Position numbers and translations under genes: made by a program. A stretch of DNA of 64,000 bases from Macrostomum lignano (Eukaryota), in assembly GCA_002269645.1 (NCBI GenBank), contig NIVC01001383.1, positions 1-64,000 on the forward strand, read 5' to 3'. Below the pieces are notes generated by a model, which saw only the letters and a list, made by a program, of their open reading frames with translations, ran no database searches and was not told the origin of the DNA. This document shows, piece after piece, positions 1 to 14,692 of this stretch. Each line of letters opens with the position of its first letter. Position 1 is the first letter of the stretch.

Positions 1-92
1 TTTTTTGACACAAAGCCGATTTCCTTATGGCGAAATACATAGTAAGTACAGGCCCAAAAAAATGGCAGAGTCCGAAATTTCATGTGCACGCA
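1..92 (+). repeat. Left terminal inverted repeat (truncated by window start)
   Basis: 1-72 is the exact reverse complement of 14609-14680; the match continues to 92 with 4 mismatches. Confidence 0.95.
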
Positions 93-524
93 GTCTGAAA
101 TTCCAAGTGCACGCTAAATATCTTTTACGCAACGTGATTATTCAGACGAATTGCATATCCACCTGTCCAAAATACAAGTAACCGATTCTAGCAATGGTGA
201 CACAAACACACTTCAAAGGATTCCATTCAAGACAAATTTACTCCAAAGCTATTCACACATTTCAAGTGTTTTTGAAATATTGAAAACTTGTGAATATTAT
301 CACCCTTTTGAAGAAAGATAGTAAATGATCTATTCTTGAGTGCCTATAGAATTTTTGCACCAACTTGAGCAGATGGTTTACAGATACTATGTCAACAACT
401 GCGTCAACATGCTTCTTCTTTATACTATATATATATACGAACACACTGACACAGAAAATATTAAATAACTTAAACCAAGTTTACATTATACTACTTGTTC
501 AACTATACTTACATCTTAAGTGAA

Positions 525-1473
525 ATGAAGCGATCACGTCAGCAGGAATTGGCCGAGCGCTATGTTAAACAAGGTAAGATAATCACCTACTCTAGTTCAG
601 TTTTCTTTTTTAGATTGACTGTTCGCTATAGTTTAGTTTCTAGATTGATTGTTAGTTCGGTTTCTGTTTAGACCGATCCTCTGTTTGTTCAGTCTCTAGA
701 TTGATTTTCTGCTAGTTCGGTTTCTGTTTAGACTAATACTCTGCTAGTTCAGAATTTCTAGATTGATTGTCTGCTAGTTCGGTTTCTGTTTAGACTGATT
801 CTCTGCTAGTTCAGTTTCTATATACATTGTATACATGCACCTATACCAAATTTCCCTCATCTTATCCATTATTATAGCATTCAAGAATGGTTTCTTCACG
901 CGGCCACCTCCAGATCAGTGCAAACGCATTTGCCACGACACCACCACATCCAATTCTGCTGCAAGAGCATCATATTCTACATCTCTCGCCAGAGTAACCT
1001 CGATTCATGTCGAGAGACAGACAACTGAGCTAGATCGCATTTACACAAGAACTGATGTTATTCAGTCAATTAGGCAGCAATCGAACCCACGACCAACTGA
1101 CCAACTGCAGTATGCACCACCACCACCATCACCAACCAGCTACAATGACCCAACAAAGCAAACTTGCAGTAAGCCTACAAGTACCAAACCAACGACAGCA
1201 ACTGAAACACCATCATCATCAATTGCTATTTCTACCCAAGTTCAACCGCTGCTAAACTCGCCAATTATTGTACAGAAGGACATCAAGTCTGTAAAAGTCT
1301 CTCAAATGAGCACAGGCTTCTACCAAGTAGAATTACAAAGACCTGTAATACAACTCAAGTATTTGAATATTGGGACCTATCTTAAAAAGACATTTTTTCT
1401 AACTCTTCATAAAATTTTGCCAGCAATGTGTCCAAGTAATTGCTCTTTTAGTATATATCAAACAAGTCTGTAA
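525..1473 (+). CDS. Polinton gene 1, spliced (525-573 + 878-1473), unknown P/S/T-rich protein
   Basis: ATG AAG CGA..CAA G|GTAAG donor at 574; TTATAG| acceptor at 877; phase 1 joins MKRSRQQELAERYVKQ to the 835..1473 ORF frame (AFKNGFFTRPPPDQC). Confidence 0.6.
604..820. repeat. About 59-bp tandem repeat (two ~29-bp subunits) inside the intron of Polinton gene 1
   Basis: Repeats of tagattgattgtctgctagttcggtttctgtttagactgattctctgctagttcag. Confidence 0.85.
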
Positions 1474-1639
1474 TCAATAATATAATCTCTATAAATTCAT
1501 TATTCTAAAAAATTCTTTCAATTTTATTCGCCATTTATTGAAATTATTTAATTCAATATAAAGTCAATATCTTGTACAGTCATCATTAAACAAAAATTAT
1601 TAATCCATGCAAATAATTTTTTTTCATACGTTTCTTTAG

Positions 1640-2335
1640 CCATGGTCTGGCTTTTGCCTCAACAGTATGATTTAGCTGTGGTCCAGCTTTTGCCTCAACA
1701 GTATGATTTAGCTGTGGTCCAGCTTTTGCCTCAACAGTTTTTAGCCGTGGTCCGGCTTTTTTGCCTCAGCAGTATGATTTAGCTGTGGTCTAGCTTAAAA
1801 CTGCATCAACAGTGATTTAGCTATAGTCCAGGCTTAACTACCTCAACGATGATTTAGCTATAGTCAAGGCTTAACTGTCTCAACAGTAATTTTAGCTGTT
1901 GTCCAGACTTAACTGCCTCAACAGTGATTTTAGCTGTGGTCCAGGCAACTGTCTCAACAGGGATTTAGCTGTAGTCCGATTAGCTTAACTGTCCAGTTAT
2001 TTAGCTGTGAGCCAAGCAGCAGCACCCGTCTCAACAGTGAGAATTAGCTATGGTCAGCTTTACCTCAACTGTGATTTGGCTGCTGTGGTCTAGCATAACT
2101 GACTCAACAGTAATTTTAGCTGTAGTCGTCCAGCTTAACCACCCGTCCAGTTTTATAACCATGGTCCAGCTTAACCACCGTCTCAACGTACAGCGATTTA
2201 GTCGTGGTCCAGCTTAACCGTCTCAACGTACAGTGATTTAGCCATGGGTCTAGTAGCAATTAACCGTATCAATAGTGATTTAGCCGTGGTCCAGCTTAAC
2301 TGTCTCAACACAGTAATTTAGCTTAGTCCAAACAG
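1640..2335. repeat. Degenerate ~36-38-bp tandem array inside the Polinton
   Basis: About 18 units of consensus gatttagctgtggtccagcttaactgtctcaacagt with many indels and no spacers. Confidence 0.9.
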
Positions 2336-3033
2336 CATTTGTGTGTCAACTGCACTGACTGCATGCGGTTATAGCAGCGGCAGTCATTATAGTCCCAACA
2401 AGCTGCGCGTCGCAGCATGATAGTGTAACTCTATATAGCTTCTGCTCAATATAGGACTGCAAAAGCTGAGTTACAACTATACCTTTTTCTGTTTGAAAAG
2501 TAACACTCTATATATAGGTTACTCAAGCAATCTCTTGTCACCGTGCGAGCTAAAAAATTCCAACATGCAAGCAAAACTTTCAATAAATTAATTTCATAGC
2601 ACCGCGTGCAGCTTATTTTTACTCTAAAATCCAAGATTGCTAATTTTTCAAGTCGCAAAATATTTTAATTACATTCTACTTGAGAACAAAACCAATCTAA
2701 TGAAGCAGCAACCAGCAGTCTTCTTATTAAACGCTTGCCATCGTGTTACTCTTGCAAATTTATAACTAGTGTGCCTAAGATTCATTAATTTTATTGTATA
2801 AAATATCAACCTACATTTGCGTAAAATTAGACCTAATCATGCAACCCACCCTAGAAACTTATGCCACCTTTGGCACGCAACAATGTCTTAATCAGCACGC
2901 AACAATTAAATTTGTTTACTAGTTCACAAACAGCATGCAAAGCTTGCTATAAATACAAGACCCGAAATGGTCAATTTTTCATGAGCTCAATCATTACAGC
3001 AAAAGAAATACTATATTCAATTGCTTGTAAGAC

Positions 3034-4232
3034 ATGGCAGCTTGCATCAAGACGGAGTCAATTGTACGCTCCGACTCGAGTCCGATTTTTTACGTTGGAG
3101 AGCAGTCTACAACCACGACTGGTTCGTCCTGCCAGTTTCGATCTATTGCGTGGAAACCATCAATCGAGTGTACAAAATGGTACCCAATTATATTGCAAAC
3201 CAAGGCTCCAATGGAGCTTTTTCGTGGAATCGCAGAAAGGCCAGAGCTCGATCATCCGTCTTGCAGACACGACTCTCGCGACGCAGTAAGTGTCCAATTT
3301 CATCCAGACAGCTGCGATAAGGAACTCTTCCACTCTCTCCGGTGAGCACCATATTAAATTTATACAATTAATTTTAGGAAACTATATTCATAATTTATAT
3401 AATGTTTTGCAGTCAAGTCGAAAAAGGTCTATCGGTCAAGTTGAACGAGATTCAAGATGCTCGACCCTTGGCACGACTAACAAAACCAGCTCATCAGCAT
3501 GCTAACGACGTCCTCGAGTTTGTGCCTCAACAATGGCTGGCTATAAAGCCTGCTTACCCTTGTGCCACAATCAGGATCAGCAACGATCATCCACACGGGA
3601 AGGAGGTGTCCATTTCCGATTTCAAAGGTGTCAGCGGTACCTACCAAATGACAGTGCAAGCAACGAGCTTGTATTGTCCAAAAGGCTGCCTCGTCTGGCG
3701 CATTACATTCGCTGTGCGCTCTCTGACACTCATAGAATCTTCCGACAACATGTTGCAGCGCCTCGACATGTTCAAGGGAGTGCTTGCACACCTACCCGCG
3801 ACCAAGTCAGCAATTAGAAGCAGGAGTCCGTCCCCAACATCTACCTGTGAGCAAGAAGAAGCAAATGAACAAAGCCTGCAGAATTCAAGCCAGGTGACAC
3901 CTGCCAAGTCACCTGCAAAGCGTCGGTCTACCACCACCGTATCGAAGAAGTCGACTACATCGAATGCAGCGCCAGCCTCTATTGAACCGCCGCCTAAAAA
4001 GCAAGTTCGAAAACGCAGCGGTGCAAAACAGCAAAACAATTCTGCCGAAGCTGGTGCAGATGGCACAGACTGGGTGGAGGCTCCACCAGCAAAGATCTTG
4101 GTGAGTACACCTGCCTCTGGAACCAGGGTAGCGTCCAAGGAGACAGCATTTTTAAAGCGTGCTGCTGCGGACGCTACTACAGCTAGCGTGTCTTCATCGG
4201 ACGACTCGTACAGCAGCTCTGATGATGAGTAA
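3034..4232 (+). CDS. Polinton gene 2, spliced (3034-3341 + 3413-4232); putative OB-fold ssDNA-binding protein with basic linker and acidic tail
   Basis: CTC CG|GTGAG donor at 3342 and TTTTGCAG| acceptor at 3412 join ORFs 3034 and 3402 in phase 2; motifs PIILQTKAPMELFRG and YQMTVQATSLY..WRITFAVRSL; ends SSSDDSYSSSDDE. Confidence 0.6.
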
Positions 4233-4442
4233 CAAAATTTTTGACTAATTTTATCCAAGTTTTAACTAACTTATTCCACTATATTTATCAAATTTTTGGC
4301 TAGGGAAATATTATTTTTTAGGGAAAAGCTCAAAACATTTTTTGCTACTCCTTGTACGCTAACCAGGTTTTGTAATTTAATATTAGAATTTACGATAGTA
4401 TAGTCATGTTTAACTTTTCTTATTATTTATTTTCCGTTTTAG

Positions 4443-5000
4443 CGACTTGTCCTATTAATAGTTACTGCGAGTCTGAAGCTGCACCCGTTTGAAAAATTTG
4501 ATTTAAAGCAGACCAAACAGAAGCTACAGACCAGAAACCGGTTTTGCAAACTATTCCTAAGCCGACCAACAATGCTAAAGACAATTTATTCAAATGCTAA
4601 AATCCAACTTTATCCAGCAGGAAAACTAACTATATATGGCTGTAAATCAAATTCTCAGATAGTCTCAGTTTTACGATTTATCAACGACACTATTAATTGT
4701 GTAGATTTTGATTCAGTAAAAATTCAGAGCAGTACCTATGTCGGCTTTATTGGTCATCTTTGGCCAAAATTCGGTTTCTCTAGTCTAAAAAGATATGCAG
4801 GCTACTATTCGAATTATCTGGTTGGATACGATGCAGAAAATTTCCCACAAGCAGTTTCTGTTAGATCAGCATCAAAACCAAGGCTTTTTTGTAACATATT
4901 TTTTTCGAAAAAGTTTGTTATTATGGGCGTTCAAAACACTCATGAATTGAATAATATTCTTAACCATGTCAAGGATTTTTTAATCTCTGTTAATAACTAA
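4443..5000 (+). CDS. TATA-binding-protein (TBP)-like protein, both pseudo-repeats present; start codon uncertain
   Basis: AKIQLYPAGKLTIYGCKS ~ TTALIFSSGKMVCTGAKS; VKIQS ~ FKIQN; YDAENFPQAVSVRSASKPRLFCNIFFSKKFVIMGV ~ [33 protein letters not shown]; frame open from the acceptor at 4441-4442 (first strand LLIVTASL..FDLK lies upstream of the 4572 ATG). Confidence 0.85.
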   Translation, partial: RLVLLIVTASLKLHPFEKFDLKQTKQKLQTRNRFCKLFLSRPTMLKTIYSNAKIQLYPAGKLTIYGCKSNSQIVSVLRFINDTINCVDFDSVKIQSSTYVGFIGHLWPKFGFSSLKRYAGYYSNYLVGYDAENFPQAVSVRSASKPRLFCNIFFSKKFVIMGVQNTHELNNILNHVKDFLISVNN

Positions 5001-5223
5001 ACTTAACAAGTAAACAATTGCTGTCAAATCGCAGTTGCGATGCATTCTTTTACAAACATTTTGTCTTTTTTTATTTATTTACCAATTGTTTTCTCTAATA
5101 GTAAACGTGTCAGCTATACCTATAACTAACCAAATCATCATTTTTCTTACAGCCGCAAATGACAAACCGGATCATCTATTAATATTATGCTCGATACGCT
5201 CGTTGTCGAGCTAGGTGCACACA

Positions 5224-5937
5224 ATGCCGCGTGCACAATGCCAAATCTGCAGAAAAAAGTTCAGTAATCAAGCCGAGCTGCATGCTCACTCGCATGGTGC
5301 TTGTTTTTCACCGCAACGATTACTGACCGGATCGCTGCAAAACCTGATCGAAAACCCACCAGATGGGTGGTCCATCGCTTTGCGCGAGTCAGCTCATCGT
5401 GGTCGGGTAAATTTTGTCGAATTTACTCCCACTCTTGAACAACAAGGCAACAGCTCTGGCGAGTTACTTCCTGGCGAGTTGATTGCGTCTTTAAGAGAAC
5501 CAATATTTAAAATATTGGAAAAAATTGGCTCACCCAGTTTATTAATAAGAGTCTGCTTTCACTTGAAAGTGACACTATTTCGACCGAAAACAGCAGCAGA
5601 CGACAACGATGGCTCGAGCAGCGAAGAGATCATTTCGGTCTATTTTAATACCAACATTGCGACAATATCATTTGATGAGACGATTGCAAACAGTGACATG
5701 CTGTTATCTCCCGAGGCCTACAATGACTGGTTCGCACGCGTTATTAATCAGTTGTTAATAAAAATTGACAATTTTCAATCTCGAGGTAGTAATTGGCAAT
5801 ATAGAGCAATCGAGCAGCTAGACTTGATGCTCTGCGTTTATCGCAAAAGCCATGCAAGCACACTGTCAACAAATACGTCCCACGGTGGTGTGGGGGCGGG
5901 CGGCGGCAGTGGTGGTGGTGGCGGCGGTGGTGGTGGT

Positions 5938-5969
<32 letters not shown>

Positions 5970-6105
5970 GCGCGGGGAGTCCGGTCCAGTCCGGTCCGGT
6001 CCAGTCCGGTCCGGTCTGGTTAAGCAGCAATCGTTTAAAGTTCCAGTCTCAATCGGTCGCAAAGCTGGAGCAGTACTGCTTCTAAAGCCGCACAGAGCAG
6101 TTTAA
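5224..6105 (+). CDS. C2H2 zinc finger plus N-terminal (terminal-protein-like) region of Polinton protein-primed PolB; no polymerase domain
   Basis: CQIC..HAHSH finger; IDNFQSRGSNWQYRAIEQLDLMLCVYR and SFKVPVSIGRKAGAV match, by recall, the GSGW and SYI.LP..I..K.A blocks of Polinton pPolB N-termini. Confidence 0.7.
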
Positions 6106-6400
6106 AGCATCAAGACTATTTAAGAGTCTTACACAAGCGACAACTTGTGTTTTCGCGCATACAGTCCATTCGTTCTCGAAAACAGAAAGTTTTTTTTGAT
6201 GCAACAAAGAAAACTTGCACTAAGCTTCTTCGATACGAAGCGATCCTGGACAAGTTCAATTAATTCGCTACCCTTTGGACACTGGCACTTGGCTAATTAA
6301 TTAACAATATGCTCTGATCTCTTTTGTTGTACAAAGTAATAGCATGCTATAGAAGACTGTAACCCATCATTAATTTTTTCATTGATCATTATTTACAATA
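6106..6400 (+). pseudogene. Disrupted continuation of the pPolB N-terminus (vOTU-like protease remnant)
   Basis: Same frame after two TAA stops reads SDNLCF (OTU-type D..C motif); frameshifted RYPLD and IDHY pieces follow; similarity ends before dUTPase. Confidence 0.5.
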
Positions 6401-6592
6401 AATAAATGATACCGGCATTCGTTTAAATTATAATTTTAGCACTTTTTTGTGTTTAATTATTTGAAAAAGTATATTTTTTATAGTTAGATTCTCAAGACTA
6501 AGCTTGTGTTTGTAGTAGACGTAAATGTAGTGCTATCGTTCATGTTTCAAGAAAAAAAACTTTTTTTTAAACTTTCAGCTACAAGAATCGAC

Positions 6593-7075
6593 ATGAATCC
6601 CGAGCAGCAGCAGCAACAACAACTAACTGATCGTAAGCTTTTAGTTGAACGTCTATACGATTCGGCAACGATTCCGACCCGAAAAACTGTCGGGTCGATC
6701 GGGTATGATCTTTGCGCTGGCGTCGATGGTACCATTCCGGCCTACGAGTCCCGGAGTGTGCGAACCGGACTCAAAATTCGCTTACCGCCTGGTACCTATG
6801 GCAGGATAGCGGGACGTTCCAGCATGGCTCTGCACAGCTTATTTGTTGGCGGTGGCGTAATCGACCCCGACTATACTGGTGAAATCTGTATAGTCTTGTT
6901 TAATTACAGTCCGGAAGACTTTGAGTACTATGCCGGGCTCAGTATTGCACAACTGGTTCTGGAGCAGGCCGTGCTTGCTTCAGTCTATGTGACTGAAGCA
7001 GACAATTCGATTCGGATGATTGAGCCGCCGACCAAGCGGCGCGGCTTTGGCGGCTTTGGCAGCACTGGCCAATAA
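6593..7075 (+). CDS. dut: dUTPase (trimeric type), Polinton-borne
   Basis: All five motifs: GYDL, RIAGRSS, GGVIDPDYTGEI, IAQLV, RRGFGGFGSTG; likely ATG at 6593. Confidence 0.97.
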   Translation: MNPEQQQQQQLTDRKLLVERLYDSATIPTRKTVGSIGYDLCAGVDGTIPAYESRSVRTGLKIRLPPGTYGRIAGRSSMALHSLFVGGGVIDPDYTGEICIVLFNYSPEDFEYYAGLSIAQLVLEQAVLASVYVTEADNSIRMIEPPTKRRGFGGFGSTGQ

Positions 7076-7166
7076 GTATAATAATAATAATAAACTGATT
7101 TTTTTCTTTGGTGATTGGTGCACTATGCGAGAGCTTTGTAAATACTATAAGCAATTTTAAAAATTT

Positions 7167-7610
7167 ATGCCTAAAATATATGTTGTAAAAATGTCTCCAG
7201 CGAAAGATCGAGGTTTTAAAAAGAAAAAGAAGAGCATTCGTAAAAAGAAGAAATCTATTAGAAAGATTAATAAAAAGCAACAAGGTTATGGTGTCGTAAA
7301 TTGGTTAATTAATCATTTACCATTTGAAGCACATTTACCCGGCGGATATCAGTTTTGTGGTCCAGGTACGCAACTGCAAGCTAGGCTAGCAAAAGGACAA
7401 CGAGGAATTAATCGGCTTGACAATTTGTGCATGCTTCACGACGTGGCCTATGATAAAAATTCTGACGTGCAAGAGAGGTTAAAAGCTGATAAGCTATTAG
7501 AATCTGGTGCACGAGAGATTGCCCACGATCCGTCTACTGGTTGGAAAGAAAAACTAGCTGCGAAGTTGGTTACCAAGGTTATGCAAGTTAAGCAACGCTT
7601 TGGTGCTTGA
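7167..7610 (+). CDS. Parvovirus VP1u-type phospholipase A2 with Lys-rich N-terminus
   Basis: HLPGGYQFCGPGT Ca-binding loop and DNLCMLHDVAY catalytic HD; second ATG at 7191 may be the real start. Confidence 0.9.
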   Translation: MPKIYVVKMSPAKDRGFKKKKKSIRKKKKSIRKINKKQQGYGVVNWLINHLPFEAHLPGGYQFCGPGTQLQARLAKGQRGINRLDNLCMLHDVAYDKNSDVQERLKADKLLESGAREIAHDPSTGWKEKLAAKLVTKVMQVKQRFGA

Positions 7611-8302
7611 AAATGCAGCAGCCATACAATATGCAACTAGCTCACGATTCTACATTTATTATTGCTGGACCTTCAAACTCGGGTAAAACTGAATGGACGT
7701 TGCGTTTGTTGACTGAACGAAAAGAATTATTTGATAAAAAACCGTGCCGTCTTGTTTGGTGCCATGGATCAAGTTTGAAACCAGACGATCAACAACGAAT
7801 TAGAACATGCTGGCAAAAAAGCGGTCTTGACCCTATTGTTTTTGTACCCGAATTCACACCACAGATGATTAATCGTTTTTTACCACACGATTTGGTTGTT
7901 GTTGACGACTTGCAAAGCGAGATTGCTAAGTTGCCAGAATTTACTAGTATGTTTACAAAGCATGCGCATCATATCCCTTTGACTTGTCTGTACCTTTGTC
8001 AAGGTCTTTTTAACAAGTCTGATCCAGAAGCACGCATGCGAAGTTTATCAGCTAGTTATATTTGTCTAACTCGTAGTGTGCGCGATCGAACCACAGTTGA
8101 ACATCTCGGTCGACAAATGTATCCGCGTAATAGTAGGTTTCTAGTGAATGTGTATGAAGACGCAACAAATAACAAACCTTTTTCATATTTATTCATTGAC
8201 CTGCGGCAAGTGACACCAGATTTTTTACGATTGAGAACAGGAATATTTTCTGGTGATGAACAAGTTGTCTATACTCGTGAATGTGATGCAAAGTTTGTGT
8301 AA
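7607..8302 (+). CDS. A32/FtsK-like genome-packaging ATPase
   Basis: Walker A GPSNSGKT, Walker B LVVVDDL, HHIPLTCLYLCQ motif. Confidence 0.95.
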   Translation: MKMQQPYNMQLAHDSTFIIAGPSNSGKTEWTLRLLTERKELFDKKPCRLVWCHGSSLKPDDQQRIRTCWQKSGLDPIVFVPEFTPQMINRFLPHDLVVVDDLQSEIAKLPEFTSMFTKHAHHIPLTCLYLCQGLFNKSDPEARMRSLSASYICLTRSVRDRTTVEHLGRQMYPRNSRFLVNVYEDATNNKPFSYLFIDLRQVTPDFLRLRTGIFSGDEQVVYTRECDAKFV

Positions 8303-8359
8303 TATTATTATAAGCAAATTATAAACTGTTGTCAATATTAGTTTGTGTTTTATTTCAAA

Positions 8360-9349
8360 ATGAGTTTTTACGTTTTTTTGCCGTCAAACGATATCAGTTA
8401 CGAAACCAACTCGCCTAATGAATTTCGAGTGCGACTAACTGAACCAATAAATTTATTGAACGGATTCTTCGAGGTTGCACTAGTTGAATTACTGTGCCAT
8501 GGAGCAATTACGACGCCAAATGCTCATCGTGAGCGTCGATTTGAAGTTCCATATTTTGCGGACATTGACTCAATAATACGATTAAAGAAAAACTATTGGG
8601 GTCGTGTTTGGGCAGAGGCAGACTTGGATGCTTACGTTTCCTGGCAACCGTCTGGTACAGATGAAAAATTTGCCTGGCTTTTACGAAATTCAGGCGAAAA
8701 AACTATTGGATTAGAACTACCAGTTACATTTATGGACGCTTTCAAATTTGACTCTTGGAAGAAACTTTCTGGACTTGTCTCGGAAAAATTATCAAAACCT
8801 GCCGCTGGTAGTGTACAACCACCGGATGGTTCATACTTGGATTTGATAAAAAGTCTCGACAATACTCTAGCGCTAGTACCTGAGAACTATTATGTTTTTT
8901 ATTGTGTTCTATCGCCTGGTGAAGCTATACGACTTGTTTCGCATGGAGACTATCTTCGAAAAACGGAAGGAGAAGTGTACATCAAAGTACACCAATATTG
9001 GTTGAGAAATCGTGTTTGGCGCATTAACAAAACCTACTTGGATGCTGTGCTACCTTCTCCGATGCCTAGTAAAACGGTTTACATGTACTGTTACACAGAT
9101 ATAATCGAGTATCAAGCAGTGGGAAGTACATCAGTACCGTTGCTTCGAGTTGTGGAACTCCAACAAAAGAAAAACGGAGAACTTATACGCGATAGCAGTG
9201 CATTGCAAACACCCTACTACTTGAAAACAAATCGACAACAAATTCACGAGATTTCGATTCGACTATCGGACCAGCGCGGAAAACCGTTTAATTTTGATCC
9301 GGGAGCACACGTTGTTGTCGTACTGCATTTTAAACATAGGTCGGACTAA
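8360..9349 (+). CDS. Minor capsid protein (penton)
   Basis: FYVFLPSN..N.PNEFRVRL..FEVALVEL and MYCYTDII..VG...PLLRVV..ISIRLSDQRG..VVLHF, typical of the Polinton single jelly-roll mCP. Confidence 0.92.
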   Translation: MSFYVFLPSNDISYETNSPNEFRVRLTEPINLLNGFFEVALVELLCHGAITTPNAHRERRFEVPYFADIDSIIRLKKNYWGRVWAEADLDAYVSWQPSGTDEKFAWLLRNSGEKTIGLELPVTFMDAFKFDSWKKLSGLVSEKLSKPAAGSVQPPDGSYLDLIKSLDNTLALVPENYYVFYCVLSPGEAIRLVSHGDYLRKTEGEVYIKVHQYWLRNRVWRINKTYLDAVLPSPMPSKTVYMYCYTDIIEYQAVGSTSVPLLRVVELQQKKNGELIRDSSALQTPYYLKTNRQQIHEISIRLSDQRGKPFNFDPGAHVVVVLHFKHRSD

Positions 9350-9405
9350 TTTATAAGCAAAGATTAATTGTGTAATAGAAAATTTTGTGAATTTGTTTTG
9401 TAAGA

Positions 9406-9834
9406 ATGAGCGAACTAACAGAAAAAGGAAAACAAAATGCTCGCTCATTGTGTCAGTGTGCTTTTTTACTACAAATTGTTTATCGGCTAAAGCATCCAAA
9501 GCAGAGAAAAAGTTTTTTACAAACACTTTCAGAGTCGGAGATACGATGTCTAGTAGACTTTCTGTTTAATATTATTAGTGGACGTATTAAAATTAGTAAC
9601 TGTAACAAAAGACGACTTGAGAAGCATCGCAGATATATACGCCAGCTTTTGGAACAGAAGACTCCAATTACTGCAAAAAGGAAAATACTTGTCCAACACG
9701 GAGGATTTTTACCTTTTTTGGCTCCAATTATTGCCGCTCTACCTGCTATAAGCACTGCGCTTGGGATAACGTCTGGAGTAGTTGGTACCGCCGCGGGAGC
9801 AGCGAATTTAATACGATCAATTCAACGAAAGTAG
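9406..9834 (+). CDS. Conserved Polinton protein with C-terminal GG|FLPFL amphipathic segment (candidate membrane-lytic core protein)
   Basis: RKILVQHGGFLPFLAPIIAALPAI.. hydrophobic tail after an adenain-like GG site. Confidence 0.75.
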   Translation: MSELTEKGKQNARSLCQCAFLLQIVYRLKHPKQRKSFLQTLSESEIRCLVDFLFNIISGRIKISNCNKRRLEKHRRYIRQLLEQKTPITAKRKILVQHGGFLPFLAPIIAALPAISTALGITSGVVGTAAGAANLIRSIQRK

Positions 9835-9844
9835 TAGGAATATA

Positions 9845-10534
9845 ATGCGAACTAACGAGAGTAGTAGTTTTCAACGAATGTATCTAGTACCTGAATCTGT
9901 GTATCAATCTGCATGTCAAGGTGCAGAGCAAGGATCGTCACCAACTGCTGAGACACCTCGAAAAACTGAAGTTTTAGACGCACCGCAAGATGCTCTGGCA
10001 AAAAATATGGTGGAAATGAGAGACCAAATGGATAACTTGGACAAGGAAATGGAAAAGGAGCCAAATTACACAGCTCAATTGAAACGAAGCAGATTGGAAG
10101 ACAAACTTTTAAAATTGCGCAAAGTCTATCGCACTGGAGACGAGGACAATCTGTCACTTGTTCGCAAAGGGACTACTGTAAGAAGTTCATATGCCAGCGA
10201 ATCAAGGGAAATTCCTAAAGTTTTTTTACCACGTTTCGAAGCTCTCGCTCAAAACCTATTTTCGGACATGGACAAGAATGCAGAACCAATGCTGGCTAAT
10301 TTGACTGATGCCGAGATACAAGATCTCATGGAATATGTTGTTCGAGACAGACCGCTTAAGCGACACGAGACTCAACCGCCTAGTGGACTAAAAACATTTT
10401 TAGACTTTCTTCGAAAACGTGGAATCGCAGCAAACCAAATCGGGCGTCATGTACGAAACGAGCTAATGTCTGCTCCAAAAACTGTTGCAAAGGAGGATCT
10501 TAGTCTGTTTGAAAATTATCAAACACTGAATTAA
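9845..10534 (+). CDS. Polinton hypothetical protein
   Basis: 229-aa ORF with a RMYLVPESVY N-terminal motif like those in other Polinton ORFs, co-oriented in the structural block. Confidence 0.7.
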   Translation: MRTNESSSFQRMYLVPESVYQSACQGAEQGSSPTAETPRKTEVLDAPQDALAKNMVEMRDQMDNLDKEMEKEPNYTAQLKRSRLEDKLLKLRKVYRTGDEDNLSLVRKGTTVRSSYASESREIPKVFLPRFEALAQNLFSDMDKNAEPMLANLTDAEIQDLMEYVVRDRPLKRHETQPPSGLKTFLDFLRKRGIAANQIGRHVRNELMSAPKTVAKEDLSLFENYQTLN

Positions 10535-10646
10535 GTTGTTTTAAAATTACAGATTACGTTTTAACAAAATTGATTCGAGCACTATAAGCTTTTTAAAAAG
10601 GTTAATTTTTTGTTTATGAAAAATATATAGTTTAATAAGACAAACC

Positions 10647-10835
10647 ATGTCATCTATCTTCCAAAAACTTTTGATTCGTCTCTGTGAGTTTTTTTGCATA
10701 AAATCTGAATGTGTGCCGTTTCTGGGAAAGGAGCACAACGAGGATACTGACGGAGATTCGATCGAGGCTTCGTTCTTTTGTTGCAACTGTCAAACGACTA
10801 GCATCAATCTAACTGATGATGAAGCGAGTGCGTAA
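10647..10835 (+). CDS. Small Cys-containing ORF overlapping the integrase start
   Basis: 62 aa; TATAAGCT 64 bp upstream; function unknown. Confidence 0.4.
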   Translation: MSSIFQKLLIRLCEFFCIKSECVPFLGKEHNEDTDGDSIEASFFCCNCQTTSINLTDDEASA

Positions 10836-11976
10836 GGAAATTGAAGAATTTTTGACGGATGCTTTTTTTAACTTGAACAGGCCTACTTCATTTAGTGGTA
10901 ACAAGACTATACTTGTTCGTGAAGTACGTAAAAAGTTTCCACAGATTACGAACAAAGTTGCAAAGCGCGAAGTTGATAATTGGGTGCGATCAACAAATGA
11001 GCATCATTTATTTCGAAAAACACGACGAAACTTTCCAACTCCAAAAATTAGTGTGCCACCAGTTGCAAAGTTTCAGTTTCAAATCGATTTGGCAGATTTA
11101 CCTCAATACAAGACGGAAAATCGAGGTTATCGTTACATACTTGTTCTTATCGACTGTTTTACTAGAGTTGTACGACTAAGACCATTGCGTACAAAGAAGC
11201 CTTCAGAAGTTAGTCAAGTATTACTAGAGATTTTTCGAAGTGGTTTTAAGCCTGTTTATTTACAAGGTGATGCTGGTATGGAGTTTCTCGGAAGAGCTAC
11301 ACGTCAAATGCTGAAACAGGAAGGAGTTCGATTTTTTGTTAGCCAAAGCAATTACAAGGCAAGCATGGCTGAACGATTTATCCGCTCGTTAAAGGAACGT
11401 CTATTACGATACTTTCGAGCAAAAAATTTACCTCGATGGTTTGACATTTTACCGCAATTGGAAGATAATTTCAACTCTAGTCCTCATCGATCCTTGAGTG
11501 GAGAAACACCAAAACGGGTAGAGACAGACCCGCATTTACAAGGAATTTTGTGGGACAAAATGTTTGCGAAGTCGTACACTAAAAAGAATGAGAATAAATT
11601 TAAAGTTGGTGATTGGGTTAGAATTACACGACGTCGAGGAACATTTGAAAAAGGATACACTACGACTTGGAGTAATTCAAAATATCGCATTCATCGTGTA
11701 CACTTGACAGACCCGCCAATGTACGAATTAGTGGACCCTGAAGATGGATTTGAAGTGCTGAAAGGAAGGTTTAACCAAGCGGAACTAATGTTGGTAAACG
11801 AGACAGATGAAACACCTAATGAAATTGAAAAAGTTATTGAAACTGATCGAGCGAAAAATGGAAGTCGTCTGTATCTAGTAAAATGGAAAGGTATGCCAAT
11901 CTCAAGAAGTCAGTGGTTAAACGAAAATGATCTTGACGCAAAGACTGCTAAACTATTTTCTAAAGTGTATAAGTAA
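10816..11976 (+). CDS. Retroviral-type (rve) DDE integrase with C-terminal chromodomain
   Basis: QFQIDLAD / LQGDAGMEF / MAERFIRSLK triad; KFKVGDWVRI; IEKVI..YLVKWKG..SQWL chromodomain. Confidence 0.97.
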   Translation: MMKRVRKEIEEFLTDAFFNLNRPTSFSGNKTILVREVRKKFPQITNKVAKREVDNWVRSTNEHHLFRKTRRNFPTPKISVPPVAKFQFQIDLADLPQYKTENRGYRYILVLIDCFTRVVRLRPLRTKKPSEVSQVLLEIFRSGFKPVYLQGDAGMEFLGRATRQMLKQEGVRFFVSQSNYKASMAERFIRSLKERLLRYFRAKNLPRWFDILPQLEDNFNSSPHRSLSGETPKRVETDPHLQGILWDKMFAKSYTKKNENKFKVGDWVRITRRRGTFEKGYTTTWSNSKYRIHRVHLTDPPMYELVDPEDGFEVLKGRFNQAELMLVNETDETPNEIEKVIETDRAKNGSRLYLVKWKGMPISRSQWLNENDLDAKTAKLFSKVYK

Positions 11977-12017
11977 CACATGAATTGGGATTGCATGACG
12001 AAGAGAAGACTGTTGAA

Positions 12018-12476
12018 ATGGATCCTATTTTTGCTTTTTATTCTGGTCCGAATAGATCTGCTGAAGGTGGAGGTGGATATGGCATTCCTGTTTACGAAGG
12101 TTACGGTTTTTTGTCAAATTTGGCGGACAGATTGGTGTATCCTGTACTACGCAACGCAAAGAAAGATTTCTTGGATCGTGGTCTGGAGTATTTGAAAAGT
12201 GCGACAGCAAAAATTGGTATGGGTCGGAAGCGTCACTTGGACACAGAATCGAGCGAAGAGATGTTTAATACAACTGCAGTTTCGAGACCAAAGCGAAGGA
12301 AAAGAACCAGTGGAGTGGCTATAAGCTTAGGAAAGAAGAAACGGCAAAAGAAACGACGAACAAGACAGTGTGGAAAGGGACGCGTGAACAAAAGAAAACG
12401 CAAGAAGACCGGTGGTATAGGAAAACGTCGAACTGCTACTGCAAGCAAGAAACTTTTTAGTCTGTTTGAAAAGTAG
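12018..12476 (+). CDS. Arg/Lys-rich core (pVII-like) DNA-condensing protein with adenain-type sites
   Basis: GGGYG|IP, EGYG|FLSNL and CGKG|R motifs followed by long K/R tracts; probable ATG at 12018 (ORF track 11985). Confidence 0.75.
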   Translation: MDPIFAFYSGPNRSAEGGGGYGIPVYEGYGFLSNLADRLVYPVLRNAKKDFLDRGLEYLKSATAKIGMGRKRHLDTESSEEMFNTTAVSRPKRRKRTSGVAISLGKKKRQKKRRTRQCGKGRVNKRKRKKTGGIGKRRTATASKKLFSLFEK

Positions 12477-12477
12477 C

Positions 12478-13800
12478 ATGAACCATTTGCTTGGACCTGA
12501 TATTGCTGCTCTTAAAAGTGAATTGTCGCTATTTGATCAAAGTCCTGTTCAGTTTAGTGTTTTGGATAATCGATATACTAACATTCAACCGCAACATGGT
12601 ATTACAAAAGGATCACCTATCGAATTTGAAGTTGTGCCTGCAGGCGATTTGTATTTGGATCTACAAGAAACTGTGCTCACGGTATGCTTCAGCGTTAGTG
12701 ATAGTGAAGGTGAACCTATAGATGCAACGAAAAATTTTGTTTGTTTGAATAATTTGGTTATTGGAACATTGTTTGAGGACGTTCAATTTACTATTGGCGA
12801 TACTGTAGTTGAAGGTGGTAGTTTTATGTATCCATACAAGGCTATGCTTCTTACATTACTGGAATATGGACATACAGCTCAGAAGGCTGGTTTACTGCCG
12901 TGGGGGTTTTACAAGGATACAGCTGGTAAAATGAATGCAACAAGTGAAAACGATGGACGAACAAAGAGGCAGGCGCTCATTGCTAACAATAGGCGGTGCA
13001 CTGTATCGGGGCCGTTATTCTTGGATTTGTTTCGTCAGCCTCGGTATCTACTATCAAAGACACCACTACGGATCAAGCTCATACCGGCAAAAAGTAAATT
13101 TGTCCTGAGCGGGTCAACATTAGAAGCTGGTGCGGTTTTAAAAGACTATGAGATCAAGTTTTTGCGTGCAGAACTACGATTGCGGTTTGTTCAACCCTCG
13201 CCGAGTGTTATCAGTGCACATGCTCATGGACTTAAAAGTCACAATGCATTATATCCGCACCGAAGTCTAAGCCTTGGTACGTTTACTATACCCCGAGGAT
13301 CGTCTAGCCATACGCATGAAAATTTGTTTCCTAGTGGGGTACCACGGCTTTTATTGATGGCAATCGTAAGCAACAAGGCATTCAATGGAAGCATGGACAC
13401 AAATCCGTTCAACTTTGAGCATGCAAATGTGAGCAGCATTGGTGTGTTTGTGAATGGAGACTCGGTACCATCGCGTCCGCTGCAGACAAACTTTGGAGAT
13501 GATTGTGTGACAGAGTATAATTTTTTGCTACAACAGCTTGGAATCTATCTACAGGGACGAGATATTGGATTTAATATGCTGGATTACGCCAATGGTTACT
13601 CAATTTTTGCATTCAGTCTTGGAAGTGAACCTGGTGTCGGACGGGGAGTGCAACTGTATAAGGAAGGAAATGTAAAACTAGAGTTACGCTTCAATGCTGC
13701 AACTAGTACCGTGTACAACGTCATATTTGGAGGTATATTTGACAAGCAACTGCAACTGACTGAACTTCGCGACATTGTTCCTGGCACAGTATGGAAGTAA
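12478..13800 (+). CDS. Double jelly-roll major capsid protein (hexon-like)
   Basis: KSELSLFD..PVQFSV, PIEF...YLDL, LDLFRQPRYL, NPFNFEHANV; Polinton MCP pattern, 440 aa. Confidence 0.95.
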   Translation: MNHLLGPDIAALKSELSLFDQSPVQFSVLDNRYTNIQPQHGITKGSPIEFEVVPAGDLYLDLQETVLTVCFSVSDSEGEPIDATKNFVCLNNLVIGTLFEDVQFTIGDTVVEGGSFMYPYKAMLLTLLEYGHTAQKAGLLPWGFYKDTAGKMNATSENDGRTKRQALIANNRRCTVSGPLFLDLFRQPRYLLSKTPLRIKLIPAKSKFVLSGSTLEAGAVLKDYEIKFLRAELRLRFVQPSPSVISAHAHGLKSHNALYPHRSLSLGTFTIPRGSSSHTHENLFPSGVPRLLLMAIVSNKAFNGSMDTNPFNFEHANVSSIGVFVNGDSVPSRPLQTNFGDDCVTEYNFLLQQLGIYLQGRDIGFNMLDYANGYSIFAFSLGSEPGVGRGVQLYKEGNVKLELRFNAATSTVYNVIFGGIFDKQLQLTELRDIVPGTVWK

Positions 13801-14354
13801 TTGATTCTATCCTAGATCGTGGTGTAACAGATCGCTTCCTTCGCAATGTTGTATCGAAATTGTGCGCACATTTTTTAAATGTTGTATTTCTTGGTGTTTT
13901 TCCTCAAAACTTTGTTGGTGGACTTAGACGCTTACCTTTAGACGGTAAAGACTATTTTTTTATCGTTAATACTGACGTCTCCAACCTGCCCGGAAAACAT
14001 TGGGTATGCGTTTGGGTTTATGGTCATCGAGCAGGTCGCGGTAGCAAACGACTTGGTGAATATTTTGATTCTCTTGGTCTAGTACCATTGCCAAGAATAG
14101 CAAAATGGCTAGGAAAAGAATGTGGAAATTCGAAAAATTGGTGTTATAGTCGCTTTGCTATCCAAGACCCACAGAGTGGAAGTTGTGGATTTTGGGTAAT
14201 TTTTTATATTTTTCATAAGTTGACTACCAGAGGAAACCTAGAGTGTTTTATTCGAAGCGTTTTTAAACGGAATATAATTCGCACTGGTTCGTTTCGATAC
14301 TTGTATGCTAAATTACGCAATTTTGTTTTACGAGTGCTGCCTCAATATTTGTAA
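13791..14354 (+). CDS. Adenain-type (C5) cysteine maturation protease
   Basis: FIVNTD..PGKHWVC, EYFDSLG, IQ...SGSCG (His-Asp-Gln-Cys). Confidence 0.95.
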   Translation: MEVIDSILDRGVTDRFLRNVVSKLCAHFLNVVFLGVFPQNFVGGLRRLPLDGKDYFFIVNTDVSNLPGKHWVCVWVYGHRAGRGSKRLGEYFDSLGLVPLPRIAKWLGKECGNSKNWCYSRFAIQDPQSGSCGFWVIFYIFHKLTTRGNLECFIRSVFKRNIIRTGSFRYLYAKLRNFVLRVLPQYL

Positions 14355-14588
14355 ACTCGCTAATTTGTGCGTCAAATTGTGTTTGTATCTAGTTGAAATA
14401 TACAATACTGCTTGAAAAGAAGAATTTAAATGCGTTAAGTTATACGCGAAATAAGCTTTGTGTCAAATTGAATTTTGGTTGGGCTTGTAATTAGCTGCAT
14501 TCATTGCGGATAGAATTTAGGTGGATAGACAGGTGTTTGCGTAAAAGTGATTCAGCTAATTGGTTAATTCATTGCGTAAAAGCTAGTT

Positions 14589-14692
14589 TGCGTGCACGGC
14601 AAATTTCAGACTCTGCCATTTTTTTGGGCCTGTACTTACTATGTATTTCGCCATAAGGAAATCGGCTTTGTGTCAAAAAAACGTATACTACT
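14589..14692 (-). repeat. Right terminal inverted repeat
   Basis: Reverse complement of 1-92 plus terminal ACGTATACTACT; followed by GGTGGG (predicted 6-bp TSD, unverifiable in this window). Confidence 0.95.

What the first reader, a model, noticed from the sequence alone, without database searches (positions are those of the whole stretch)
4443..13663. Candidate element-encoded transcription system: divergent TBP plus a TATAAG(C) variant-TATA box before nearly every structural gene
Seen: TATAAG occurs at 7146, 8309, 9352, 9747, 10583, 11968, 12320 and 13657. That is once upstream of PLA2, penton, the FLPFL protein, ORF9845, ORF10647/integrase, core protein, MCP and protease; the ATPase has only near-matches. 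Five sites lie 45, 51, 54, 64 and 50 bp from the next probable ATG (7191, 8360, 9406, 10647, 12018). Three are embedded in the upstream CDS (98, 158 and 134 bp). Six are TATAAGC, where my rough composition estimate expects under one in this 6.5 kb, and I saw no TATAAG in 1-7100. The same element encodes a TBP-fold protein. Inference: the viral TBP paralogue may read a variant TATA box and switch on late (virion) genes using host Pol II, giving an early/late cascade in a Polinton.
Basis: partly seen in the sequence, partly recalled or inferred. Interest (0 to 1): 0.9.

Follow-up and report, generated by a model that had tools for sequence, protein, structure and literature searches.

The report
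Polinton TBP with private late-gene box
A virus-like Polinton element carries its own TATA-binding-like protein and a conserved TATAAGC box before most of its putative virion genes, and two other Polinton lineages in the same animal genome each have their own such protein and a different box, which likely means each lineage switches on its late genes with its own promoter reader.

Summary
Observation confirmed: 8 TATAAG on the + strand at the stated places, 6 TATAAGC (0 of 1000 shuffles). Six sites are conserved in 4-5 of 5 diverged subfamilies; 9747 (1 of 5) and 13657 (coding Y-K, 3 of 5) are doubtful. ORF 4443-5000 is a TBP-fold protein that keeps the TFIIB-contact glutamate but has a remodelled DNA face. 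It has no start codon at its first strand and is likely spliced to the upstream SSB-like early gene (joint not seen in 8 runs). New here: two other Polinton lineages in the same genome each encode their own TBP-like protein and have a different box at the same spacing, TATAAATA and YTTAAGAA, near-exclusive by lineage. A TBP-less lineage lacks such a spaced box. Best reading (0.6): the element's TBP selects late promoters for host Pol II, like the herpesvirus TATT system. Binding, start sites and timing are untested, and one lineage's box is canonical. This scan noted TBP-plus-box Polintons in other genomes before (unchecked). The window copy lacks most of its polymerase.

The parts
1..92 (.). 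Left terminal inverted repeat, cut by the contig start
   Evidence: 96% complementary to 14589-14680; window is contig base 1 onward
2948..2955 (+). Canonical TATA box (TATAAATA) 86 nt before ATG 3034, likely early promoter
   Evidence: canonical boxes at the like place in 4 of 5 subfamilies checked
3034..3341 (+). Exon 1 of the early gene
   Evidence: ORF 3034; GT..AG joint 3340-3412 in 6 of 8 runs laid
3413..4232 (+). Exon 2 (ORF3402 frame), SSB-like N-terminal domain plus low-complexity tail
   Evidence: ESM Atlas first hit 0.94 to a viral cluster with DUF2738 on 10% of members, a lead only; no Pfam or PDB sequence hit
4101..4106 (+). Internal phase-0 splice donor GTGAGT (inferred)
   Evidence: GTRAG at the same K.L|VS codons in 7 of 7 group-1 copies read; joint not seen
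4443..5000 (+). TBP-like domain, 185 aa, starts directly behind a conserved splice acceptor (AG at 4441-4442)
5152..6105 (+). Spliced-leader acceptor (5152) and 5' remnant of the protein-primed DNA polymerase gene; most of the gene is missing in this copy
   Evidence: leader loose end in 1 of 8 runs; homology to long ORFs of relatives, one of which hits PF03175
6578..7075 (+). Spliced-leader acceptor (6578) and dUTPase
   Evidence: leader loose end in 2 of 8 runs, one study; PF00692
7146..7152 (+). Box TATAAGC before PLA2 (7167/7191-7610); ATPase 7613-8302 follows without its own conserved box
   Evidence: 4 of 5 subfamilies; ATPase 1 of 5
8309..8315 (+). Box TATAAGC before putative minor capsid protein (8360-9349)
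   Evidence: 5 of 5
9352..9358 (+). Box TATAAGC before pX-like core protein (9406-9834; PF05829)
   Evidence: 5 of 5
9747..9753 (+). TATAAGC inside pX coding sequence, 98 nt before ORF9845; doubtful
   Evidence: 1 of 5 subfamilies; kept only in the 84-97% relatives
10583..10589 (+). Box TATAAGC before small ORF 10647 and integrase (10816-11976)
   Evidence: 4 of 5; rve and chromo domains
11968..11974 (+). Box TATAAGT over the last integrase codons, before the basic core-like ORF (12018-12476)
   Evidence: 4 of 5
12320..12326 (+). Box TATAAGC inside the core-like ORF, 158 nt before the putative major capsid protein (12478-13800)
   Evidence: 5 of 5, at 124-165 nt, in unlike flanking sequence
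13657..13663 (+). TATAAGG inside MCP (codons Y-K-E-G), 134 nt before the protease (13791-14354); doubtful
   Evidence: 3 of 5; the other two use TACAAA and TATAAA for the same residues
14589..14692 (.). Right terminal inverted repeat and element end

Best explanation
This is a Polinton/Maverick element whose conserved TATAAG(C/T) box sits 41-86 nt before most putative virion genes and likely acts as a variant TATA box read by the element's own TBP-like protein, which would recruit host TFIIB and RNA polymerase II to give an early-to-late switch. Inferred steps: (1) host TBP starts the early unit at a canonical TATA (2948); (2) an alternative splice from 4100 to 4443 puts the TBP domain behind the SSB-like protein; (3) this protein binds the lineage's box through a remodelled DNA face; (4) its retained acidic stirrup takes host TFIIB; (5) transcription starts about 25-30 nt downstream. 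Shown: the box, its conservation and spacing, the TBP fold assignment, purifying selection on TBP-like ORFs, host splicing and leader addition on early transcripts, and that three lineages in one genome each pair a TBP-like gene with a different box.
For: Unbiased 7-mer ranking of upstream windows: group 1 (window's lineage) TATAAGC 26 of 47 vs 0.6 expected; group 2 TATAAAT 12 of 16 vs 0.6; group 3 TTAAGAA 23 of 32 vs 1.2. Whole-cassette sense counts of the own box: group 1 7,5,5,9,6; group 2 6,6; group 3 7,7,7,7; foreign boxes on the sense strand 2 in all 11 cassettes. All three groups encode TBP-like ORFs; two complete TIR-bounded group-4 elements give no TBP profile hit and no TATAAG in 19 upstream windows. 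Box-to-ATG 41-86 nt (sd 10) vs stop-to-box -12 to 276 (sd 72) at 19 sites; no box after the last cassette gene in 10 of 10 elements; no box closer than 30 nt to an ATG in 62 sites of three groups. Group 3's box is not a consensus TATA, while its early PC4-like gene has TATAAAAG. The E188- and F190-equivalents are invariant in 13 of 13 rows, and V161 is T in 12 of 12 viral rows. dN 0.12-0.21 vs dS 0.71-1.82 in 4 pairs, a fifth saturated. Precedent: beta/gamma-herpesvirus TBP-like proteins on TATT boxes (PMC4893493, passages).
Against: No binding, start-site or timing data. Group 2's box is canonical and is the same 8-mer as the window's own early TATA. TBP-less group 4 has TATAAAT in 6 of 19 windows (1.5 expected, 1 of 300 shuffles). 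Wild-type TBP has been crystallised on G(-26) and C(-25) single variants (PDB titles 1qn5, 1qn3). In group 3 the TBP gene itself has the box 74-77 nt upstream, which does not fit a plain cascade. Group 1 lacks the F99- and both Asn-equivalents, group 2 lacks F207, and the model superposes on TBPs with TM only 0.35-0.46 and rmsd about 8-10 A. Only three lineages in one host, and group 1 and 2 TBPs are sisters (95/96), so the pairs are not independent; the one TBP-less lineage is very distant. The 4100-4443 joint was not seen in 8 runs.
Confidence: 0.6

Rival explanations
1. The boxes are real promoters but host TBP/TFIID (or its TRF-like paralogue) reads them; weak non-consensus boxes give late timing once templates are amplified, and the viral TBP-like protein does something else (decoy for host TFIIB, Mot1 or NC2, or a general booster).
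For: Group 2's box is canonical; PDB titles show wild-type TBP on G(-26) and C(-25) variants; host TBP and a TRF-like gene are present; the viral proteins have lost some DNA-contact residues; EBV BcRF1 binds TATA and TATT alike in vitro (PMC4893493 passage).
Against: One host TBP does not explain why three co-resident lineages each fix a different box at 5-9 sites per element, nor why group 3 fixes YTTAAGAA while its early genes keep consensus TATA.
Confidence: 0.24
2. The TAAG core is a baculovirus/nudivirus-type late initiator read by a helper virus's RNA polymerase, making the element a satellite; transcripts would start inside TAAG.
For: Groups 1 and 3 share TAAG; the (A/G/T)TAAG late promoter of baculoviruses is recalled, not from a call.
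Against: Plain ATAAG is not enriched (11 vs 8.8); flanks are strict and lineage-specific; group 2 has no TAAG box; a floor of 30-35 nt to the ATG and out-of-frame ATGs 9-27 nt after five group-1 boxes fit a start further downstream (weak); each lineage keeps its own TBP-like gene.
Confidence: 0.08
3. The box is a 3'-end or termination signal of the upstream gene, or a by-product of codons and gene packing.
For: 13 of 19 scored sites lie within 14 nt of the upstream ORF end; 11968 and 13657 are in-frame Tyr-Lys codons.
Against: Spacing tracks the downstream ATG, the first cassette gene has a box 71-276 nt from the upstream stop, and no box follows the last gene in 10 of 10 elements; the MCP box is kept inside unalignable coding sequence in 5 of 5. 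Codon by-product does fit 13657.
Confidence: 0.04

Closest known systems
Beta/gamma-herpesvirus late transcription: viral TBP-like BcRF1/ORF24/UL87 on TATT boxes (PMC4893493 passages; PMC12529657 abstract and section 16)
   Same: Virus-encoded TBP-fold protein, a variant TATA box before structural genes, host Pol II inferred, early genes on canonical TATA
   Different: Here a bare 185-aa TBP domain (likely spliced to an SSB-like protein) in a 15-18 kb element; no five accessory factors seen; the E188-equivalent is kept, whereas ORF24 lacks it and is predicted not to bind TFIIB; box differs by lineage; nothing tested by experiment
Polintons/Mavericks/adintoviruses (PMC8502044 and 10.1101/697771 passages; PMC8097293 passages)
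   Same: Terminal inverted repeats, rve integrase, pPolB in relatives, ATPase, protease, PLA2, pX, putative capsid genes; 'TBP' appears as a label in figure legends on MELD viruses
   Different: No promoter or motif analysis in the passages searched; TBP is not among the eight vertebrate Maverick core genes named; this copy lacks most of pPolB
TBP-like proteins of Nucleocytoviricota (ASFV B263R-like, Heterosigma akashiwo virus TBP)
   Same: Nearest look-alikes by features and fold
   Different: Those viruses bring their own RNA polymerase (recalled); this element has none, and its early RNAs are spliced and leader-trans-spliced by the host
Cellular TBP/TRF family (PF00352)
   Same: Two-repeat topology, F190, P191, G216 and acidic stirrup equivalents
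   Different: 22% identity to host TBP; F99, N69, N159, V161, L205, T215 equivalents changed (yeast numbering recalled)

Membership tests
Polinton/Maverick | Terminal inverted repeats | tested here: met
   1-92 / 14589-14680, 96%; end near 14692
Polinton/Maverick | Retroviral-type integrase | tested here: met
   PF00665 33.7 bits over 32.6, plus chromo
Polinton/Maverick | Protein-primed DNA polymerase B | tested here: not met
   Only the 5' part is in this copy; 17 of 19 copies compared have the short spacing; relatives carry a long ORF hitting PF03175. So: a deletion derivative of a Polinton lineage
Polinton/Maverick | Packaging ATPase, protease, jelly-roll capsid proteins | tested here: inconclusive
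   Walker motifs conserved; Peptidase_C5 only E 0.038; no Pfam hit for MCP or penton; folds not modelled; names rest on size, order and about 30% identity among lineages
Polinton/Maverick | Target-site duplication | not tested
   Left end is cut by the contig start
TBP family | PF00352 match and two-repeat alpha/beta topology | tested here: met
   31 bits over 22.9; pLDDT 89; the first 40 listed PDB rows (E 1.6e-08 to 1.2e-05) are TBPs or TBP-containing complexes
TBP family | Saddle geometry of the two lobes | tested here: inconclusive
   pTM 0.62; TM 0.35-0.46, rmsd about 8-10 A
TBP family | Four intercalating aromatics and paired Asn | tested here: not met
   Three aromatics kept (Y, F, F); F99 and both Asn equivalents changed in 5 of 5 group-1 rows
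TBP family | Acidic stirrup for TFIIB | tested here: met
   E188-equivalent in 13 of 13 rows, D/E two residues before in 13 of 13; role of E188 from PMC12529657 section 16
TBP family | Binds a TATA-like box and supports initiation | not testable with these tools
   Needs binding and transcription assays
Beta/gamma-herpesvirus vPIC | TATT box | tested here: not met
   Boxes are TATAAG(C/T), TATAAATA, YTTAAGAA
Beta/gamma-herpesvirus vPIC | Six-protein viral complex | tested here: not met
   No such families among 17 window ORFs scanned; several small ORFs stay unassigned
Beta/gamma-herpesvirus vPIC | Late, replication-dependent kinetics | not testable with these tools
   Only assembled contigs of runs were available
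Baculovirus-type TAAG late promoter | Start inside (A/G/T)TAAG, flanks free | tested here: inconclusive
   Starts unknown; ATAAG not enriched; spacing floor argues against

The most novel reading that the evidence does not exclude
Co-resident Polinton lineages run private, mutually orthogonal late-transcription channels in one nucleus: each has evolved its own TBP and box pair (TATAAGC, TATAAATA, YTTAAGAA), and in two lineages the TBP is made as a splice fusion to a single-stranded-DNA-binding protein that ties virion-gene transcription to replicating genomes.
Probability: 0.3. Interest if true: 0.9.

Novelty: new variant of a known kind. Interest (0 to 1): 0.72.

Why it matters
Whether animal Polintons are autonomous viruses with a timed gene programme, or rely on a helper, is open. 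A one-protein late switch in a 15-18 kb element would be the smallest counterpart of the herpesvirus late machinery and would argue for autonomy. Three natural TBP and box pairs in one host give a direct swap experiment on how TBP specificity can change, in a protein family known for near-fixed DNA recognition, and possibly orthogonal promoter parts for eukaryotic cells.

Tried and rejected
Start-site hint rejected: contigs of three runs begin at 11994, 26 nt after the 11968 box, but a genomic copy in C877 begins at that same base; a break at 12003 matches a one-base variant; the 12405-to-12346 joint looks like a local duplication. No RNA holder listed on record and no raw reads; thin cover over the TBP exon says nothing. 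No clear initiator consensus at +18 to +41. Outside Polintons could not be had: viral-contig scans with MCP, TBP and ATPase alignments and one metagenome scan found no relatives, so the test on TBP-less Polintons rests on one lineage. Word search with the single TBP found nothing; with the profile, 4 group-2-like proteins; the representative search gave 5 group-1- or group-3-like proteins among 149 examined, without context. Further group-1-like places fetched were mostly broken copies and showed no new box. Group-1 and group-2 SSB-like domains do not match by profile (prob 1.1), and no structure model of that domain was obtained, so 'SSB' is a lead. Three pPolB loci (C558, C2286, C173) showed no hit to my reference set and were dropped. 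No complex prediction was sent. Patikoglou 1999 is not held; I rely on PDB titles, a citing passage and recall.
Full report
The observation. In 7100-14400, TATAAG is seen 8 times against 1.8 and TATAAGC 6 times against 0.35, with 0 of 1000 shuffles reaching either; TATAAGC ranks first of all 7-mers there, so it survives a look-elsewhere check, while plain ATAAG is not enriched. Across the whole window the hexamer is at chance level.

The element. Bases 1-14692 are a Polinton: inverted repeats, rve integrase with chromodomain, dUTPase, PLA2, pX, a weak adenovirus-type protease match. The capsid names rest on size, order and about 30% identity between lineages, not on a fold test. At least 40 places in the genome match the TBP region. 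The window copy keeps only the 5' part of the polymerase gene; 17 of 19 copies compared share the short spacing. In contigs of runs guessed to be RNA, the 3342-3412 intron is removed in 6 of 8 runs, and one leader is attached at 5152 (1 run) and 6578 (2 runs of one study). That leader occurs 58 times in the genome, and 3 of 3 array copies read continue with a GTAAG donor: a host spliced-leader gene ending in AUG, a feature named for flatworms in PMC9851317 (abstract start in the listing). So early RNAs are handled by host nuclear machinery.

The TBP-like protein. ORF 4443-5000 passes the Pfam cut-off, folds with two-repeat TBP topology at pLDDT 89, and its top PDB and viral matches are TBPs, but lobe orientation is not reproduced (TM 0.35-0.46). 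Against host TBP (22% identity) the E188- and F190-equivalents are invariant in 13 of 13 rows and V161 is T in all 12 viral rows; group 1 has lost the F99 and both Asn equivalents (yeast numbers are recalled, host position plus 60). PMC12529657 (section 16) names E188 as critical for TFIIB and says KSHV ORF24 lacks it; here it is kept. TBP-like ORFs show dN 0.12-0.21 against dS 0.71-1.82 in four pairs; the pair with the window is saturated, and group-3 ORFs partly overlap another frame. The first ATG is at 4572, 43 codons into the fold, but 7 of 7 group-1 copies have an acceptor right before the first codon and a phase-0 GTRAG donor in the tail of ORF3402. A splice fusion to that early protein is therefore likely; the leader's AUG would also be in frame. 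Neither joint was seen in 8 runs. ORF3402's N-terminal part resembles viral clusters with DUF2738 on 10% of members; that this family is an SSB is recalled, and one search found no paper.

Conservation of the box. I scored the window and four subfamilies at 67-81% MCP identity (C889, C297, C4619, C1680); near-duplicates (C2529, C4948, C3758, C84, C753, C3153) and broken 84% relatives were left out of counts. Exact TATAAG[CT]: penton, pX and MCP 5 of 5; PLA2, small ORF/integrase and core 4 of 5; ATPase and ORF9845 1 of 5; the protease site is TATAAGG in 3 of 5 and synonymous non-box codons in 2. Spacing follows the downstream ATG (41-86 nt, sd 10) and not the upstream stop (-12 to 276, sd 72) at 19 hand-listed sites (MCP sites not included), and no box follows the last gene in 10 of 10 elements. 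Starts are my picks of in-frame ATGs.

The natural experiment. The same genome holds other Polinton lineages. Group 2 (MCP about 31%) has a short TBP-like ORF behind an acceptor and an SSB-looking ORF; group 3 (MCP about 29%) has a clear TBP-like ORF and accounts for 9 of 9 further TBP-family places fetched. Ranking all 7-mers in 250-nt upstream windows gave TATAAGC for group 1 (26 of 47, 0.6 expected), TATAAAT for group 2 (12 of 16, 0.6) and TTAAGAA for group 3 (23 of 32, 1.2) (two group-1 boxes are counted for two genes each, three windows were cut short by locus edges, orthologous windows are not independent). Counted over whole cassettes the own box occurs 5-9 times per element on the sense strand, foreign boxes twice in 11 cassettes. 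Distances have a floor of 30-35 nt and a mode near 41-60 in all three groups. Early genes carry consensus TATA boxes. Group 4, two TIR-bounded elements, has no TBP profile hit, no TATAAG in 19 windows, but TATAAAT in 6 of 19 at mixed distances.

Mechanism. The simplest account of three boxes in one nucleus is three readers. I put 0.6 on the element's TBP selecting late promoters with host TFIIB and Pol II. Against: no direct data; group 2's box is canonical and equals the window's early TATA; wild-type TBP tolerates G(-26) and C(-25) singly (PDB titles); group 3's TBP gene sits behind its own box, which needs feedback or read-through; group 1 and 2 TBPs are sisters, so there are at best two or three independent pairs. 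Host TBP reading all boxes gets 0.24, a helper polymerase on TAAG 0.08, a 3'-end or codon effect 0.04.

What is known. It works like the beta/gamma-herpesvirus TATT system (PMC4893493, passages) but is not a member: no TATT, no six-protein complex. TBP appears as a label in figure legends on MELD viruses (10.1101/697771 and PMC8502044, passages), with no mention of promoters in either main text. Term searches within PMC8097293, PMC11161782, PMC11296320, 10.64898/2026.10.13.758929 and 10.64898/2026.06.19.733378 found no TATA passage. Five library searches (listings only) showed no paper on a Polinton TBP with a matching late box; subscription papers, figures and supplements were not seen, and the adintovirus supplements may hold more TBP annotations. 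This scan's own notes report TBP-plus-box Polintons in other genomes, one with TATAAAC; I did not check them, and they lower the claim to being first without adding support.

Verdict. A real, conserved promoter-like element with a plausible element-encoded reader; a new variant of a known kind; interest 0.72.

Noticed in passing
window 5152 and 6578: Host spliced leader is trans-spliced onto the polymerase and dUTPase RNAs of the element.
   Followed up: yes
window 10330-10356, 13657-13692, 13932-13961: Contigs in 6 of 8 runs join three 27-36 nt pieces of the element amid unrelated sequence, one joint landing on the 13657 TATAAG; a 43-nt piece 2925-2967 around the early TATA is likewise embedded elsewhere in 2 runs. 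Unexplained; may be a heavily deleted copy or captured fragments.
   Followed up: no
L028, L029, L032, L035, L038 (group-1 relatives), after the TBP ORF: A deoxynucleoside kinase gene (PF01712) follows or overlaps the TBP ORF, in C297 in one frame with it; it is absent from the window's subfamily.
   Followed up: partly
L045-L046 (G000:C416:427378-437596): A 10.2-kb group-2 element with 587-bp inverted repeats and no polymerase ORF seen; like the window's family, a numerous polymerase-less form.
   Followed up: partly
L051-L052 (group 3): Group 3 also encodes a PC4-like transcription cofactor (PF02229, below cut-off) behind a canonical TATA, and an ORF that overlaps the TBP ORF in another frame.
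   Followed up: no
L056-L061 (group 4): TIR-bounded 16-17 kb elements with a divergent putative capsid protein and A-rich TATAAA/TAAAAA runs directly before many ATGs, a different promoter layout that may point to another polymerase.
   Followed up: partly
L043:2990-3532 (G000:C976): ORF with an HPFSDGNGRTAR motif, Fic-like by recall, in a group-2 element.
   Followed up: no
window 835-1473 and 1620-2330: ORF835 of unknown kind, found at another place in the 84% relatives, and a degenerate tandem repeat array inside the element's left arm.
   Followed up: no
window 16000-64000: Host flank is dense in tandem repeats with units of 8-96 nt.
   Followed up: no
G000:C877:115678-117480: Tandem duplication of the core and MCP part beginning at window base 11994.
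   Followed up: partly
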